Origin: a virus
Lineage: Duplodnaviria > Heunggongvirae > Uroviricota > Caudoviricetes
Virus record (IMG/VR): IMGVR_UViG_2519899835_000003
Length of the DNA stretch: 64,000 nt
Direction: 5' to 3' (one strand)
The notes under the pieces are model-generated. The model did not search any database and was not told where the DNA came from. It was given only the letters and a program-made list of their open reading frames with translations. Made by a program: the position numbers and the translations under genes. Each line of letters opens with the position of its first letter. The first letter of the stretch is position 1. Of the stretch, positions 2,848-49,600 are shown one piece after another.

Positions 2848-3161
2848 ACATCAACACCACGATAACGATCGATACAGCCCTGAACACCGGCCTGGCGCTC
2901 CTTGGTTATTTCTACATCATGTTCTGCAGCGGACGATGGCTGTCACTGTTGTTCATGAAAAAATGGAATAAACGCCGTAAGCAGGAGCAACGCCAGAAGG
3001 CAATGGATGCATTTTTCGAAGCCTTCGGGATTGACAGCATGGAACCAGGGGATCCAGCTCGCGCAATCAGCAGAGGGGGCGTAGTAATCCTTGTATATCG
3101 GAGTGAAGAGAAAAATGACGATCACAAAACAACGTGTAGAAAAAATCATATATCGCCATGA
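2844..3161 (+). CDS. Hypothetical small membrane protein
   Basis: ORF with a hydrophobic N-terminal segment (LALLGYFYIMF) and start overlapping the upstream stop; 3' end overlaps the next gene so true extent is uncertain. Confidence 0.3.
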   Translation: MNINTTITIDTALNTGLALLGYFYIMFCSGRWLSLLFMKKWNKRRKQEQRQKAMDAFFEAFGIDSMEPGDPARAISRGGVVILVYRSEEKNDDHKTTCRKNHISP

Positions 3162-16764: not shown

Positions 16765-17016
16765 TTAAAACAAAGAACCAGCAATACCACCTATGACAGC
16801 ACCAATAGCCGCACCGGGGAGACCACCAACAGCAGCGCCCATAGCTGCACCCGTACCAATTCCCGTGCCGATATTCTGTTTGTTCTGCGCTTTCTGTTGC
16901 GCCGCCATCTGTTTGTTCGCGGCCTCAATTTCTTCACGTCGTCTGTCGGCATCACTTATTCCCTGTAATGCCTCACGCCGCGACTGATTCACAATATCCA
17001 GTAAACCGTATCCCAT
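16765..17016 (-). CDS. Glycine-zipper membrane protein (83 aa)
   Basis: C-terminal GTGIGTGAAMGAAVGGLPGAAIGAVIGGIAGSLF glycine-zipper segment. Confidence 0.5.
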   Translation of the reverse strand: MGYGLLDIVNQSRREALQGISDADRRREEIEAANKQMAAQQKAQNKQNIGTGIGTGAAMGAAVGGLPGAAIGAVIGGIAGSLF

Positions 17017-18050: not shown

Positions 18051-18226
18051 CCTTTCCAGGCCACTTCTTCCTGTGCTATTTGCGCTGCTGTTGGTTTTAC
18101 TTTGGTATCACCACCGCCTTTTTTTCCACCCATAATGGCCCCCTGGATAACAAAAAACCCTGCCGGGGCAGGGTCAGAATGTGAATTGCAATGTTGGTTT
18201 AAACACAATGATGAAAACTGTAGCAG

Positions 18227-18628
18227 TCAGACCGCTATCCTGAACACCATGAAGCCATCCTCATCATCCGGCATTCGCTCAAAGCCCAGACGTTTTCCCA
18301 GCCGGATAAATCCCCGTCTTGCCGTATGAAATTCAGCCCAGCGTCCGCCAGCCAGATGGGTTAATGTCTTCACCTCCGGCAGGTAACGCTCAACGCTGTT
18401 ACTCCCCGTACACACGCCCAGCAACACCAGAACATAAGGGATACCATCAGCACTGAGCACAGAACGCAGCACCAAAAAGCCATCAGGTGCCTCAAAACAA
18501 AACGCCTGCTTTTTAAGGCAGGCGTCTTTAACTTCATTCATAAATTCAGGGTTGCGGGAATTTCTCACAACACGCTGCATATACCGGAGAATTTTGTCGT
18601 CCATTCTCTCACCAGAAACGGGTGCCAT
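18227..18628 (-). CDS. Hypothetical protein (133 aa)
   Basis: ORF between the hok-like gene and the virion proteins; followed by a hairpin plus T run near 18,153-18,175. Confidence 0.45.
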   Translation of the reverse strand: MAPVSGERMDDKILRYMQRVVRNSRNPEFMNEVKDACLKKQAFCFEAPDGFLVLRSVLSADGIPYVLVLLGVCTGSNSVERYLPEVKTLTHLAGGRWAEFHTARRGFIRLGKRLGFERMPDDEDGFMVFRIAV

Positions 18629-18684
18629 ATCGGCTGAACCTCAGCAACCAGTTGACGGGGACTCTCGTCCCCGTCGCGGTTTTC

Positions 18685-18825
18685 CTACTGCTTACACTGT
18701 AAGAACGCCGCAAACTCCGCTCCCCACAAATTCAGCCGGAACTCACACAGTGAACCGTGCAACATCCAGATGGTGAAGATAACCGTCATGCAAATTGTGA
18801 CGGTGATAAGCGATTTTTGCGACAT
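18685..18825 (-). CDS. Hok/Gef-family type I toxin (46 aa), not in the supplied ORF track
   Basis: ATG with AAAAGGAG 7 nt upstream; MSQKSLITVTICMTVIFTIWMLHGSLCEFRLNLWGAEFAAFLQCKQ has the Hok fold signature (single TM helix, then SLCE.R...E.AAF). Frame anchored against the overlapping plus-strand ORF 18552..18776. Confidence 0.6.
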   Translation of the reverse strand: MSQKSLITVTICMTVIFTIWMLHGSLCEFRLNLWGAEFAAFLQCKQ

Positions 18826-19057
18826 AGCGCTTGACTCCTTTTACAGAGAGGCGCTAACCTTCTACTTGCTTAAGGTACGAAGTGTTAGGGCCTCGGGTTA
18901 ACGTTAAGTTGACTCGGGGCCTTTCCACATCAGGCCTTCAGGTTCACCCTCCAGCCATCAGCCGAAAGGCATCCACGCATAATTTACGGTTTTTGCCCTG
19001 TACGGGCAATAAAAAACCCGCCATCACAGCGGGTAGTAAACGGTTACCGGATACAGG

Positions 19058-19792
19058 TCAGAATTTCAGGCCAATGCCAGCAGTAACGCCACTCGTGCGC
19101 CAGTCGCCAGAGCCGGAACCTTCGTAAGCCACATCCAGTGTAACACTCTCATTCAGGTTAAACTGTGCACCTGCAGCCCACGCAAGGGAGGTTTTTTTCG
19201 TGCTGTTGCTTTCAGAAAATCCGCCACTACTGTTAATATTGTCCTTAATTTTCAGGTCAGCGCTAACTTTAGCAACGCCCATCCCTGCCATCGCATATAA
19301 ACTCATGTACTGATTAACCCGCCATGAAGGCCCCGCTAACAGACTCCAGTAATTCGCCCTGATATCCGTTCTGGCAGAAGCTGCCGGATTCTTAATCTTC
19401 CTGGTATGATCGGCTGACTGCACATCAATAAATGTCTGTGAGTTAGTGAGAGAACGCGTCCATGTAAAAGAGGTGATAACGCCAAAATCATCCGTTATCT
19501 CGTAGCGATACCTGATATTAATGCCCTGTGGATTTTTATCCTTGCCTTCATATCCACTGACCCGACCATCTGTATATTCGCCCAATGAAGAAAAGTAGTT
19601 TCTGTTGACGAAATGACTGAAAGTCTCCCTGTTATGAGCAGTCGCATCCTTTACAAAATCCTTCAGTCCCGGAAACTGAAAGTGCGCATACCCCAGAGAA
19701 ATTGTATGCTCTCCTTCTGCTGCATGTGCAGATAAATTTACACAGGCAATCCCGGAGATTGCACACACAACCAGTGTTGCTATACTCTTCAT
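19058..19792 (-). CDS. lom: Lom/Ail/OmpX-family outer-membrane protein
   Basis: Signal peptide plus Ail/Lom-type beta-barrel sequence ending ...VTAGIGLKF; located beside tail genes as in lambda. Hairpin plus T run downstream near 19,013-19,037. Confidence 0.85.
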   Translation of the reverse strand: MKSIATLVVCAISGIACVNLSAHAAEGEHTISLGYAHFQFPGLKDFVKDATAHNRETFSHFVNRNYFSSLGEYTDGRVSGYEGKDKNPQGINIRYRYEITDDFGVITSFTWTRSLTNSQTFIDVQSADHTRKIKNPAASARTDIRANYWSLLAGPSWRVNQYMSLYAMAGMGVAKVSADLKIKDNINSSGGFSESNSTKKTSLAWAAGAQFNLNESVTLDVAYEGSGSGDWRTSGVTAGIGLKF

Positions 19793-42133: not shown

Positions 42134-42619
42134 GAATCCTCCCGGCCGGGATAATATTGTGAGTAAAATAAGGAGCGGGCTGAAGTCCGGAAGTTACAGG
42201 ACAATGGCAGAAGGGAGACTACAGCCCGCAATTCGAAAAAGGTCGCGCAGTTGCGCAGAGTGATTACTATGGGGTATTATTCGCCAGCTGAAATATTACT
42301 TCACGTTTCATTGTTCATTCCTTGCCGCCCGCGTCTCCCAGCGCGGGCTTTTTTGTCCATAAGAAAGCCCCTCCGGAGAGGGGCTGGAGAGTGGCGCTAT
42401 GTGCCATTGCATGGTGCCGGGTGCCTCCCGGTGAGTTCAGCCCGGTGCCACTAAACCCGCGTCATTCTCGTTTTGATAATCAGAGATTATACCGTCACCA
42501 GTCGCCCCTCCGCTCAGGGGGATTCACCATGCAGTTTTTTCTAACAAATTCTCATCCGGGCAGACAACATTCAACTGACTTAATTGTGAGGTATGTAACA
42601 TTCCCGTTGAACGGATACA

Positions 42620-45649: not shown

Positions 45650-45923
45650 AATGACGCCCTCGAGTGGTTTCTTAATAACTCACCACCGACGACGCCAATC
45701 GTCTGGTGGTGAACTGTGCAGGGTTGGCGTAACCGGGAAACCGACCGGCGCGGATCTCTCCGCCCCCACACAGCCCACCATAATTCAGATGTGCGCGTGC
45801 ATACGACAATAAAAAACACGCTCGCGGCGTGTATCTGTCGCGGTCTCTATCCAGGACGCCAATCCCGACGCCAGATTTTGCTGGCGCGTGAGGAATATAG
45901 CCCCGAATAAATCATCACGTCAA

Positions 45924-47233: not shown

Positions 47234-47575
47234 AATGACCTCGCGTTTCGATAATTTTTACCTCGCCACCGTCAGGTGCTAATCATCGTGGTGGCGAACT
47301 GTGCGGGGTTAGCACTACCGGTCGAAACATCCGGCGAGCCTTTCGGCTCCCCCACACAGCCCGCCATAAATCGCGAATGTGACTGTGCTTAGCGCATAAA
47401 AAAACCGCCAGCGCGGTTATGCACCGTTTCGATATCCGGGGTGCTAATCCCGACGCCAGGTTTTGCTGGCGCGTGAGGAATATAGCCCCGAACACGCGAC
47501 GTTGTCAAACTGATGGCATTGCAGATCCCTACGCAATGTAACACTATGTGTTATACATTAATAACGGAACAAAAA

Positions 47576-49199: not shown

Positions 49200-49412
49200 T
49201 TACTCCTCAGGTTCGTAAGCTGTGAAGACAGCAACCTCCGTCTGACCGGTTCGGATTCGTACCTCGCATAGGTCTTTCCTCGTTACCAGTGCCGTCACTA
49301 CGACGGTAATACAGATGACGATCAGGGCGACTAACATCGCCTTTTGCTGCTTCATAGCCTGCTTCTCCTTGCCTTTCGGCGCGTAAGAGGCTAACCTACA
49401 TGTGTCTAGCAT
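49200..49412 (-). CDS. hok: mok/hok type I toxin locus (Hok toxin = 49200..49355, in-frame Mok extension to 49412)
   Basis: MKQQKAMLVALIVICITVVVTALVTRKDLCEVRIRTGQTEVAVFTAYEPEE is a canonical Hok/Gef; upstream in-frame MLDTCRLASYAPKGKEKQA mirrors mokC. Hairpin plus T run downstream near 49,112-49,132. Confidence 0.8.
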   Translation of the reverse strand: MLDTCRLASYAPKGKEKQAMKQQKAMLVALIVICITVVVTALVTRKDLCEVRIRTGQTEVAVFTAYEPEE

Positions 49413-49600
49413 GAAATTGGCCTCAGATTAATGTTAGGCGTCTTGCAGGACGCGTAATGTTAACTGGGGTTTTTCTCTGTCTGCCTTACGGTGGCATGCC
49501 CGAGGCAGACAGCCTCAAGCACCCGCAGCAATTCTACTTAACTCTCGCTTTACCGCAAACCGTTTTTACCCGATATGGGAATTCCCATATCGTAATGAAT

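What the first reader, a model, noticed from the sequence alone, without database searches (positions are those of the whole stretch)
18685..18825. Second, unannotated Hok-family toxin gene next to lom
A 46-codon minus-strand ORF below the 60-aa cut-off of the supplied track has a good RBS and encodes MSQKSLITVTICMTVIFTIWMLHGSLCEFRLNLWGAEFAAFLQCKQ, with the Hok/Gef architecture (one TM helix followed by SLCE.R...E.AAF). It sits between lom and a 133-aa unknown gene, inside the late/virion region and separate from the nin-region hok. I could find no in-frame mok-like extension (in-frame TAA 18 nt upstream), so its translational control may differ from classical hok/sok. A GACGGGGAC...GTCCCCGTC palindrome lies just downstream.
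Basis: seen in the sequence. Interest (0 to 1): 0.55.

Follow-up and report, generated by a model that had tools for sequence, protein, structure and literature searches.

The report
Second Hok toxin module, without mok
This Shiga-toxin phage carries a real second Hok-type membrane-toxin gene next to lom; it is already annotated and already shown to be toxic elsewhere, and its only unusual feature is that it lacks the mok leader reading frame that classical hok genes need for translation.

Summary
The 46-codon ORF at 18685-18825 (-), its AAGGAG, the in-frame TAA at -18 and the downstream palindrome are all present. The peptide passes Pfam HOK_GEF (33.2 bits; cut-off 22).

It is not new. RefSeq annotates it as "Hok/Gef family protein" (WP_000078907.1), and the ~375-nt module occurs in 1,675 of 5,426 complete E. 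coli genomes. A 2026 preprint lists the identical peptide (72_1589). It was cloned, and it is not among the three of 45 tested homologues reported as non-toxic. It is distinct from the characterised hokW-sokW, which is the nin-region locus at 49200-49524.

What I add is that the whole hok/sok-type RNA architecture is conserved around it in 22 diverse loci:
- its own promoter;
- a 5'/3' fold-back (97% of cells paired against 32-44% in slid controls; 16 pairs with compensatory changes);
- a hairpin sequestering the SD and AUG;
- the palindrome, which is a covarying 3' hairpin;
- an antisense promoter (TTGACT-18-TAACCT) that would drive a ~60-nt Sok-like RNA.

No member has a mok frame, in any reading frame. 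Translational control therefore probably does differ from R1, but how is only inferred. Interest is low to moderate.

The parts
18981..19009 (-). Predicted hok promoter: -35 TTGCCC (19009..19004), 17-nt spacer, -10 TAAATT (18986..18981). It lies directly after the lom terminator (19034..19016).
   Evidence: Read. The -10 box (TAAATT/TAGATT/TAGAAT) and the -35 TTGCC are conserved at the same distance from the conserved 5' end in the relatives. The promoter scan did not flag it because it matches only 8 of 12 positions. BLAST homology to other E. coli copies begins at query position 16, i.e. at this promoter.
18961..18974 (-). Predicted 5' end of the hok mRNA (+1 at about 18974), the tac-like element: GGAUGCC (18974..18968) plus UCGGC (18965..18961).
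   Evidence: Pairs with the 3' box in the RNAalifold consensus and in every single-sequence MFE fold of the full-length RNA. The extension helix has 4 of 5 pairs with compensatory changes. The window carries G->A at position 3, an allele found in 5 of about 90 loci. The weak Rfam sok/hok-leader hit starts here (18974..18812; 28.2 bits, E 2.7e-4).
18854..18930 (-). Non-conserved leader ORFs from an AUG/GUG pair: AUG 18930 (8 codons) and GUG 18928 (24 codons, ending at UAG 18856..18854 in the 5' arm of the SD hairpin).
   Evidence: The start pair is present in 40 of 48 unique leaders. 33 of these have an ORF that reaches the hairpin or crosses the hok start, in varying frames. The pair is absent from all 8 Salmonella-type leaders. 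By my estimate this is not distinguishable from chance, given how related the sequences are.
18890..18920 (-). Hairpin in the hok leader (GCCCCGAGUCAAC-UUAAC-GUUAACCCGAGGC). Its complement forms the terminator stem of the antisense RNA.
   Evidence: Helix 3: 98.5% of cells paired, 3 pairs with compensatory changes. It is colinear with the corresponding hairpin of hokW and of the Rfam model.
18831..18860 (+). Predicted antisense (Sok-like) promoter: -35 TTGACT (18831..18836), 18-nt spacer, -10 TAACCT (18855..18860). It overlaps the hok SD region.
   Evidence: four of the six -10 positions (T, A, C, C, T pattern TA.CCT) are invariant in 17 diverse loci, read as TAACCT or, in two loci, TATCCT; the -35 is TTG in 15 of 17. 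hokW in the same window has TTGCCT-17-TAACCT at the equivalent place (read), and sokW RNA has been detected experimentally (PMC8621323). The consensus scan did not flag it because it matches only 8 of 12 positions.
18864..18926 (+). Predicted Sok-like antisense RNA of about 60 nt: a 5' tail complementary to the hok leader from about -42 to -62, then a 16-bp hairpin (18887..18923) followed by UUUCC.
   Evidence: Folds at -33.4 kcal/mol, z = -5.9, with 0 of 200 shuffles as stable. The outer 10 pairs of the stem are 99.4% paired across 17 loci, with 2 pairs showing compensatory changes. Neither the ends nor the expression has been measured.
18825..18856 (-). Hairpin that sequesters the SD and AUG: UAGCGC (18856..18851) pairs with GCGCUA (18830..18825), and the CUCU/GGAG pairs lie inside. 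SD GGAG is at 18838..18835.
   Evidence: Helix 5: 99.2% of cells paired; one pair never varies, four vary on one side only, none shows compensatory change. Stability is -11.6 to -14.2 kcal/mol in 20 of 22 loci. It persists in MFE folds of both full-length and 3'-truncated RNA.
18685..18825 (-). hok-family toxin ORF, 46 aa (cluster 72, sequence 1589, in the Escalera-Maurer preprint; WP_000078907.1).
18654..18675 (-).
   Evidence: Helix 6: 99.5% of cells paired, and 5 of 9 pairs show compensatory changes (GC->CG, GC->AU, AU->CG and others). It is colinear with the GGCGAGGGA-GAAA-UCCCUCGCC hairpin after the hokW stop codon. On the hok strand no U-run follows it, so it is not an intrinsic terminator for hok.
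18620..18651 (-). 3' pairing region: CUGGUUGCUGAGG, which pairs with the antisense-target segment of the leader, and the fbi-like box GCCGA (18634..18630) plus GGCACCC (18626..18620), which pairs with the 5' end.
   Evidence: Helices 1, 2 and 4. Homology with other copies of the module ends right after GGCACCC. In most relatives an intrinsic terminator follows about 25 nt later. In the Stx-phage context there is none, and the annotated ATG of orf133 (18628) overlaps this box.
18156..18175 (-). First strong intrinsic terminator downstream on the hok strand, after orf133. A weaker hairpin with a U-tract lies inside orf133 at 18520..18503.
   Evidence: It is inferred to be a possible 3' end of a hok-orf133 transcript. 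This has not been shown.

Best explanation
The locus is an intact hok/sok-type type I toxin-antitoxin module of about 390 bp (19009..18620, minus strand), inserted as a cassette between the lom terminator and orf133 in the late region of a 933W/Sp5-type Stx phage.

Shown, or reported by others: it encodes a 46-aa Hok-family inner-membrane toxin. The identical peptide was cloned for an arabinose-induction toxicity assay in E. coli and is not among the three sequences the preprint reports as non-toxic.

Inferred from conservation and covariation: the gene has its own promoter. Its mRNA is made in a closed form, in which the 5' end (GGAUGCC..UCGGC) pairs with a box about 60 nt after the stop codon (GCCGA..GGCACCC). 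In this form the antisense-target segment is paired with the 3' UTR, and the SD and the A of the AUG are locked in a local hairpin. By analogy with R1 hok, 3' trimming would remove the 3' box and release the 5' end into a local hairpin.

A ~60-nt Sok-like RNA, transcribed from TTGACT-18-TAACCT on the opposite strand, is complementary to the leader from about -42 to -100. It would keep the toxin off, most probably by triggering duplex cleavage and decay.

Unlike R1 hok, hokW and hokC, no mok reading frame crosses the hok SD in any member of this subfamily. The antisense RNA therefore cannot act through mok. Hok translation must start directly at its own structured SD, perhaps from an upstream standby site that the antisense RNA covers.

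In the Stx phage the module has no terminator of its own and faces the same way as the late operon. It would therefore also be transcribed as part of a longer RNA during lytic growth.
For: Peptide family: Pfam HOK_GEF 33.2 bits against a cut-off of 22; PHROG 251 at 85.8 bits; best NCBIfam hit is HokA.

Selection on the ORF: length conserved at 46 aa, a nearly invariant ..GSLCE.R....GAEFAAFLQCKQ C-terminal half, and dN/dS of 0.21.

Toxicity: the identical peptide, 72_1589, was cloned as LRP157. Of 45 homologues tested, only 19_179, 60_1482 and 69_1540 were non-toxic (bioRxiv 10.1101/2025.08.07.668861).

RNA architecture: RNAalifold finds the 5'/3' fold-back without being told. On 43 non-coding pairs, 97.3% of cells are paired against 32-44% with slid partners; 16 pairs have compensatory changes against 1-6; 0 of 500 shuffles reach the observed values. 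MFE folds of six members all pair nt 1-14 with the 3' box in the full-length form and refold locally when truncated.

Antisense RNA: four of six -10 positions invariant and the -35 conserved; a stable terminator-like hairpin with z = -5.9, 99.4% paired across loci; element-by-element colinearity with hokW-sokW in the same window, which is experimentally a type I TA system (PMC8621323); a weak but ordered Rfam hit to the hok leader model (E 2.7e-4).

No mok: an in-frame stop at -9, -18 or -30 in every member, and a stop within 47 nt upstream of the ATG in 15 to 22 of the 22 members depending on the frame. There is no conserved leader ORF.

Module boundaries: BLAST homology in 1,675 E. coli genomes runs from the promoter to the 3' box.
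Against: No transcript, transcript end or antisense RNA has been measured for this locus. I found no dataset covering it.

Both promoters fall below the consensus scan threshold.

Conservation of the antisense promoter overlaps sequence that is also constrained by the SD hairpin, so it is not independent evidence.

The antisense terminator has only a short U-tract (UUUCC).

The window allele has an A.C mismatch in the third pair of the fold-back. In R1, mutations in the tac element are loss-of-function (PMC9841398), so this copy could be a weakened allele.

In the Stx-phage context the usual terminator after the 3' box is missing, so the classical route of 3'-end trimming may not apply.

My specific idea that the freed 5' end pairs with hok's anti-SD was not supported: the SD hairpin persists in the truncated folds.
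Confidence: 0.72

Rival explanations
1. A mok function is still present, but as a leader ORF whose reading frame is free to vary. Ribosomes start at the AUG/GUG pair at -105/-103 (window 18930/18928, behind AAGG). They translate through the antisense-target region and stop at or next to the SD hairpin (in the window, at UAG 18856..18854). This opens the hairpin for hok initiation. The Sok-like RNA, whose 3' part covers codons 2-4 of this ORF, would block it, as Sok blocks mok in R1.
For: In 33 of the 40 unique leaders that have the start pair, an ORF from it reaches at least -39 or crosses the hok start. The window has a 24-codon GUG ORF ending inside the 5' arm of the hairpin. In R1 only translation of mok up to the hok SD matters, not the Mok product (PMC9841398). 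The AAGG before the start pair is paired in the closed form (helix 43-46 with 63-66).
Against: All 8 Salmonella-type leaders lack the start pair yet keep every other element. Frames and stop positions vary, from -81 to +134. I estimate that about 55-60% would reach that far by chance for two frames of about 22 codons, and the sequences are related, so 33 of 40 is weak. Seven leaders stop well short of the hairpin.
Confidence: 0.2
2. In the Stx phage the gene works as an orphan late-expressed membrane toxin (an auxiliary lysis factor or moron). It is transcribed mainly by Q-antiterminated late transcription or together with orf133. The TA-type RNA control is vestigial here.
For: It is co-oriented with the late operon and embedded in it. 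There is no terminator after the 3' box, and the next strong one lies after orf133. The window allele weakens the fold-back. HokW of the same phage is reported to rise on induction and to aid phage release (PMC8621323).
Against: All RNA elements are intact in the Stx-phage copies and are identical in kind to those of copies outside late operons. The gene has its own promoter-like elements right after the lom terminator. An unregulated Hok in a lysogen would be expected to be counter-selected, given its toxicity.
Confidence: 0.15
3. The locus is a decaying, non-functional hok relic, as several chromosomal hok loci of E. coli K-12 are.
For: mok is missing. The Rfam model scores below its gathering threshold. 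The fold-back has a mismatch in this allele. Some relatives are visibly truncated or degenerate (L092, L025, L060).
Against: The ORF is intact and under purifying selection, with dN/dS 0.21. Compensatory changes maintain four helices. The peptide was among those tested for toxicity and is not listed as non-toxic. The module is present in 31% of complete E. coli genomes, at up to 8 copies per genome.
Confidence: 0.04

Closest known systems
hokW-sokW of Sakai prophage 5 (Takada et al. 2021, PMC8621323); present in this same window at 49200..49524
   Same: Same phage type and same strand. The order of elements is the same: -10 box, 5' GG(G/A)UGC, leader hairpin, AGGUUAGC (the complement of the Sok -10, TAACCT), AAGGAG, hok ORF with the LCE.R core, a hairpin straight after the stop codon, and a GCACCC box complementary to the 5' end.
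   Different: HokW is 51 aa and has an in-frame 70-aa Mok; here the peptide is 46 aa and there is no mok in any frame. The distance from AGGUUA to the AUG is 29 nt here and 36 nt in hokW. The two peptides are 33% identical. The antisense recognition segments are unrelated in sequence, so cross-regulation is unlikely (inference). hokW has its own terminator and this copy does not. The Rfam model scores 110 bits on hokW and 28 bits here. The hokW-sokW deletion experiments did not consider this second locus.
hok/mok/sok of plasmid R1 (the paradigm; mechanism as summarised in Le Rhun et al. 2022, PMC9841398)
   Same: A tac/fbi-type 5'-3' fold-back, a structured hok SD, an antisense promoter facing outward from the hok SD region (-10 TATCCT/TAACCT), and an antisense RNA of about 60 nt ending in a long hairpin.
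   Different: R1 needs mok translation up to the hok SD, and Sok acts on the mok start region. Here there is no mok and no conserved leader ORF. 3' processing and refolding have not been tested here.
Cluster 72 of the Hok catalogue (Escalera-Maurer et al., bioRxiv 10.1101/2025.08.07.668861)
   Same: The peptide is identical to entry 72_1589, which belongs to a high-abundance cluster, was cloned, and is not among the three sequences reported as non-toxic.
   Different: That study deliberately analysed only the coding sequence, not Mok, Sok or mRNA structure. It does not discuss the position next to lom. It notes that only 3.5% of hok-carrying phages have two hok genes.
HokA / PndA branch of the Hok family
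   Same: HokA is the best NCBIfam model hit. The motifs are similar: M(S/P)QK at the N terminus and E(F/L)AAFL(Q/A)C near the C terminus (alignment).
   Different: The score of 38.4 bits is far below the equivalog cut-off of 89, so this is not HokA. The peptide is 4 residues shorter than the 50-position HokA model.
tisB/istR-1-type control (antisense RNA blocks a ribosome standby site upstream of a structured SD). I name this from my own knowledge as a working analogy only.
   Same: A toxin ORF with no leader peptide, an SD locked in structure, and an antisense RNA that binds well upstream of the SD (here from -42 upstream).
   Different: There is no sequence or family relationship. A standby site has not been tested here. 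This is a statement about how the locus might work, not about membership.

Membership tests
Hok/Gef toxin family (Pfam PF01848) | Peptide matches the family profile above the curated cut-off | tested here: met
   33.2 bits against a cut-off of 22, E 4e-8, residues 8-44. PHROG 251 scores 85.8 bits.
Hok/Gef toxin family (Pfam PF01848) | Small protein of about 50 aa with an N-terminal hydrophobic helix followed by a conserved L-C-E core | tested here: met
   46 aa; SLCEFR at residues 25-30. C27 is invariant, and L26 and E28 are conserved in at least 90% of the 26 subfamily sequences.
Hok/Gef toxin family (Pfam PF01848) | Toxic when expressed | not testable with these tools
   Reported by others: the identical peptide 72_1589 (plasmid LRP157) was among 45 homologues tested, and it is not one of the three listed as non-toxic.
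hok/sok type I TA locus (R1 paradigm) | hok mRNA closed by long-range pairing of its 5' end (tac) with a 3' box (fbi) | tested here: met
   Columns 25-38 pair with columns 385-400: 97% of cells paired, and 4 of the 5 extension pairs show compensatory changes. MFE folds of six members agree. The window allele has one A.C mismatch.
hok/sok type I TA locus (R1 paradigm) | cis-encoded antisense RNA (Sok), with a promoter inside the hok leader and a terminator hairpin | tested here: inconclusive
   The promoter TTGACT-18-TAACCT is conserved and sits at the position homologous to the sokW promoter. The predicted RNA has a stable hairpin. However, the promoter is below the scan threshold, and no expression data were found.
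hok/sok type I TA locus (R1 paradigm) | Overlapping mok reading frame whose translation is needed for hok translation and which is the target of Sok | tested here: not met
   There is an in-frame stop at -18 in the window, and at -9, -18 or -30 in all 22 loci. Most members have a stop within 47 nt upstream of the ATG in each of the three frames (15 to 22 of 22). No conserved leader ORF exists. hokW, as a positive control, shows the 70-aa Mok.
hok/sok type I TA locus (R1 paradigm) | Slow 3' processing to a translatable truncated mRNA; RNase III cleavage of the duplex | not testable with these tools
   Only in-silico truncation was possible: the 5' end refolds locally and the SD hairpin stays.
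Rfam RF01794 (sok / hok leader model) | Score at or above the gathering threshold of 59 bits | tested here: not met
   28.2 bits at 18812..18974 (-), E 2.7e-4 in a local search, covering the full model length 1-157. The whole-window scan at gathering level finds only the hokW locus.
NCBIfam HokA equivalog (NF007290) | Score at or above the curated cut-off of 89 bits | tested here: not met
   38.4 bits.

The most novel reading that the evidence does not exclude
The cluster-72 Hok modules are a widespread hok/sok lineage (31% of complete E. coli genomes, and also Salmonella, Shigella and E. albertii) that has dispensed with mok. It keeps the tac/fbi fold-back and the Sok-like RNA, but translation starts directly at a hairpin-locked hok SD. 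The antisense RNA would then act by decay and/or by occupying an upstream standby site, not by blocking a leader peptide. In Stx phages this module has also lost its terminator and is fused to orf133 inside the late operon. If so, 933W/Sp5-type phages carry two mechanistically different Hok systems, and the published hokW-sokW deletion phenotypes were measured with the second toxin still present.
Probability: 0.4. Interest if true: 0.5.

Novelty: already known. Interest (0 to 1): 0.3.

Why it matters
The gene itself adds nothing new. It is annotated by PGAP, it was probably among the Hok/Gef genes counted in O157 genomes in 2010, and its peptide has since been catalogued and tested for toxicity.

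Two practical points follow from this analysis.

First, work on hokW-sokW in Sp5 (effects on mitomycin-induced lysis and phage yield) was done with this second Hok locus intact. Single-deletion phenotypes may therefore understate what Hok toxins contribute. A double mutant is the obvious control.

Second, this subfamily is a natural experiment on the hok paradigm. The RNA fold-back and the antisense gene are kept under selection while mok is absent. That makes the question 'what is mok actually needed for?' testable by comparing two loci within the same phage.

Tried and rejected
1. Chance ORF: rejected by the Pfam and PHROG scores, the conserved length and dN/dS.

2. Identity with the characterised hokW: rejected. 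HokW is 51 aa and lies at 49200..49355.

3. In-frame or out-of-frame mok: searched in all three frames across 22 loci, and none is conserved.

4. A conserved short leader ORF: not conserved. It is absent from the Salmonella branch, and its frame and stop position vary. I keep it only as a low-confidence rival.

5. My hypothesis that the released 5' end pairs with hok's anti-SD, as tac pairs with ucb in R1: not supported. The SD hairpin persists in MFE folds of truncated RNAs from six members.

6. The palindrome as a terminator for hok: rejected. No U-run follows it on the hok strand, and it covaries as an internal 3'-UTR hairpin. The scan flags it only on the opposite strand.

7. Consensus promoter scan: found nothing in 18500-19150. 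The promoters are proposed from conservation and from homology to hokW.

8. Literature on hok loci without mok, and expression data for this locus: nothing found. The library does not hold most subscription papers, for example Pedersen & Gerdes 1999, Gultyaev et al. 1997 and the T1TAdb paper, so an earlier description cannot be excluded.

9. Whether cluster 72 is represented in T1TAdb could not be determined, because that information is in a figure that is not held.

Full report
WHAT IS THERE

AAGGAG lies at 18840..18835. An in-frame TAA lies at 18843..18841, which is -18. The palindrome GACGGGGAC-GAGA-GTCCCCGTC lies at 18675..18654.

The neighbours are lom (19058..19792; Pfam Ail_Lom, 113 bits) and a 133-aa ORF with no Pfam hit.

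The window is a 933W/Sp5-type short-tailed Stx-converting phage. The 901 bases around the ORF are 99.0-99.1% identical to phages P13374, phi191, 933W and VT2-Sakai, and to prophages in O104:H4 and O157:H7 genomes.

IS IT A HOK GENE, AND IS IT NEW?

The peptide scores 33.2 bits on Pfam HOK_GEF against a cut-off of 22, and 85.8 bits on PHROG 251. Its best NCBIfam hit is HokA, at 38.4 bits, far below that model's cut-off of 89.

'Unannotated' does not hold for public databases. RefSeq calls the gene 'Hok/Gef family protein' (WP_000078907.1). Phage records call it 'MokW-like host killing', 'small toxic polypeptide' or 'prophage host toxic membrane protein'. Only the original 933W and VT2-Sakai records omit it.

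It is not the characterised hokW. That toxin is 51 aa (PMC8621323). It corresponds to the nin-region locus at 49200..49355, which has an in-frame 70-aa Mok (49200..49412) and a 110-bit Rfam sok hit.

A recent survey of Hok diversity lists the identical peptide as 72_1589, in a high-abundance cluster. The authors cloned it (plasmid LRP157). Of 45 homologues tested by arabinose induction, only three others were non-toxic (bioRxiv 10.1101/2025.08.07.668861). The same preprint states that Mok, Sok and mRNA structure were not analysed, and that only 3.5% of hok-carrying phages carry two hok genes. Fozo et al. 2010 counted 14 Hok/Gef genes in Sakai by TBLASTN. The gene is therefore already known.

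THE SUBFAMILY

A protein search found 56 clusters, almost all 46 aa long, from E. coli, Shigella and Salmonella, down to 59% identity. The C-terminal half..GSLCE.R....GAEFAAFLQCKQ, is nearly invariant.

Median dN/dS over 199 pairs is 0.21. It is 0.27 in the transmembrane half and 0.14 in the C-terminal half.

I fetched 96 related loci. They lie in Stx phages next to lom, at the ends of other prophages after tail-fibre genes, as tandem pairs in Salmonella, and beside a relaxase gene.

A BLAST search with the ~400-nt module finds it in 1,675 of 5,426 complete E. coli genomes, at up to 8 copies per genome. The homology runs from the promoter to the 3' box (query positions 16-390).

THE RNA ARCHITECTURE

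Alignment of 22 diverse loci (A3) shows that far more than the ORF is conserved.

(i) A -10 box (TAAATT/TAGATT/TAGAAT) lies 17 nt after TTGCC, followed by a conserved 5' end, GCG(Y)GGGTGCC.

(ii) A box, GGCACCC, lies about 60 nt after the stop codon. Without being told, RNAalifold pairs it with the 5' GGGUGCC, and it extends the helix by five pairs, four of which show compensatory changes (UA->CG, CG->GC, GC->AU).

(iii) The antisense-target segment of the leader pairs with the 3' UTR, again with compensatory changes.

(iv) A hairpin of -11.6 to -14.2 kcal/mol encloses the SD and the A of the AUG.

Over these 43 pairs, 97.3% of cells are paired, against 32-44% when the partners are slid. 16 pairs carry compensatory changes, against 1-6 in the slid controls. 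None of 500 shuffles reaches the observed values.

Single-sequence folds of six members all pair nucleotides 1-14 with the 3' box. When the 3' box is removed, the 5' end refolds into a local hairpin.

This is the tac/fbi logic of R1 hok, as summarised in PMC9841398. The elements are colinear with those of hokW in the same window. The Rfam hok-leader model aligns over its full length at 18812..18974, but with only 28.2 bits (E 2.7e-4 in a local search).

THE ANTISENSE GENE

On the plus strand, TTGACT (18831..18836), an 18-nt spacer and TAACCT (18855..18860) overlap the hok SD region. Four of the six -10 positions are invariant in 17 diverse loci, read as TAACCT or, in two loci, TATCCT. The -35 is TTG in 15 of the 17. 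hokW has TTGCCT-17-TAACCT at the equivalent position (read), and sokW RNA has been detected experimentally (PMC8621323).

The predicted transcript, at about 18864..18926, folds at -33.4 kcal/mol (z = -5.9). It has a 16-bp hairpin followed by UUUCC. The outer stem is 99.4% paired across the loci, with two pairs showing compensatory changes.

The C.A mismatches seen in the sense-strand hairpin become G.U pairs in the antisense strand. This is read directly from the sequence.

I rate the antisense RNA as probable but not shown. Both promoters fall below the consensus scan threshold, and I found no expression data for this locus.

NO MOK

Every one of the 22 loci has an in-frame stop 9, 18 or 30 nt upstream of the ATG. 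In each of the three frames, most members (15 to 22 of 22) have a stop within 47 nt upstream of the ATG. That is downstream of the segment the antisense RNA would cover. The distance from AGGUUA to the AUG is 29 nt here and 36 nt in hokW.

A frame-variable leader ORF from an AUG/GUG pair at -105/-103 exists in the E. coli branch. In the window it is a 24-codon GUG ORF ending at the UAG in the 5' arm of the SD hairpin. In 33 of 40 unique leaders, such an ORF reaches the hairpin or goes beyond it. All 8 Salmonella-type leaders lack the start pair. Given my estimate of chance expectation and the relatedness of the sequences, this is weak, and I keep it only as a rival.

My own idea that the freed 5' end opens the SD hairpin was not supported.

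The alternative mechanism (direct initiation at a structured SD, with the antisense RNA acting through decay or a standby site) is inference.

FEATURES SPECIFIC TO THIS COPY

Most relatives have an intrinsic terminator about 25 nt after the 3' box. In the Stx-phage context, homology stops right after GGCACCCGTTT.

The annotated ATG of orf133 (18628) overlaps that box. PHROG 610 aligns only from residue 9 of orf133, so the real start is probably ATG 18604.

The next strong terminator on this strand is at 18175..18156, after orf133. A weaker hairpin with a U-tract sits inside orf133, at 18520..18503.

hok and orf133 are thus bracketed by the lom terminator and the 18156 terminator, like a moron cassette. 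They are co-oriented with the late genes.

The window also carries GGATGCC instead of GGGTGCC at the mRNA 5' end. This allele is seen in 5 of about 90 loci, and it breaks one pair of the fold-back.

VERDICT

The gene is already known and its peptide has already been tested for toxicity.

The added value here is the demonstration, by covariation, that a complete hok/sok-type RNA module lacking mok surrounds the gene. A practical consequence is that the published hokW-sokW deletion phenotypes were obtained with this second locus still present.

Noticed in passing
window 18602..18628 (-): The annotated start of the 133-aa ORF (ATG 18628) overlaps the hok 3' box GGCACCC. PHROG 610 aligns only from residue 9, so the true start is probably ATG 18604..18602, behind GGTGAGAG. 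The ORF has no Pfam or NCBIfam hit.
   Followed up: partly
window 18156..19034 (-): hok and orf133 are bracketed by the lom terminator (19034..19016) and a strong terminator at 18175..18156, like a second moron cassette beside lom. A further hairpin with a U-tract lies inside orf133 at 18520..18503 (-19.5 kcal/mol, z = -3.3).
   Followed up: partly
window 18972 (-): The hok mRNA 5' end reads GGATGCC, where most relatives have GGGTGCC. The allele occurs in 5 of about 90 loci and breaks the third pair of the 5'/3' fold-back. In R1, mutations in the tac element are loss-of-function, so this copy may be a weakened allele.
   Followed up: partly
L089:2501-2641 and 2991-3131; L090:2501-2641 and 2995-3135: Salmonella contigs carry two tandem copies of the 46-aa hok module, each with its own leader, 3' box and terminator.
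   Followed up: partly
L003, L004, L006: Contigs labelled Xanthomonas pisi, a Planococcaceae MAG and Vagococcus sp. carry E. coli-type copies of this hok locus (76-100% amino-acid identity). They are most likely contaminating enterobacterial DNA in those assemblies.
   Followed up: no
window 45702..45900 and 47287..47485 (-); 42355..42560 (-): Rfam finds two copies of a C4 antisense RNA / isrK / c4-a1b1 target module about 1.6 kb apart, and an STnc100 sRNA (165 bits).
   Followed up: no
window 16765..17016 (-): An 83-aa protein with a C-terminal glycine-zipper segment (GTGIGTGAAMGAAVGGLPGAAIGAVIGGIAGSLF) is annotated 'bacteriocin' in RefSeq. It sits among late genes of unknown function.
   Followed up: no
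window 18653..18676 (+): Read on the plus strand, the hok 3' hairpin is followed by CGGTTTTCC, and the scan scores it as terminator-like. It could stop any transcription running antisense into hok from the orf133 side.
   Followed up: no
L092:2340-2500, and L025, L060 at the same offsets: Some copies have lost the promoter and the 5' pairing element (L092, L025), or are degenerate in the 5' box and the SD hairpin (L060), while keeping an intact ORF. These look like decaying or re-wired members of the subfamily.
   Followed up: no
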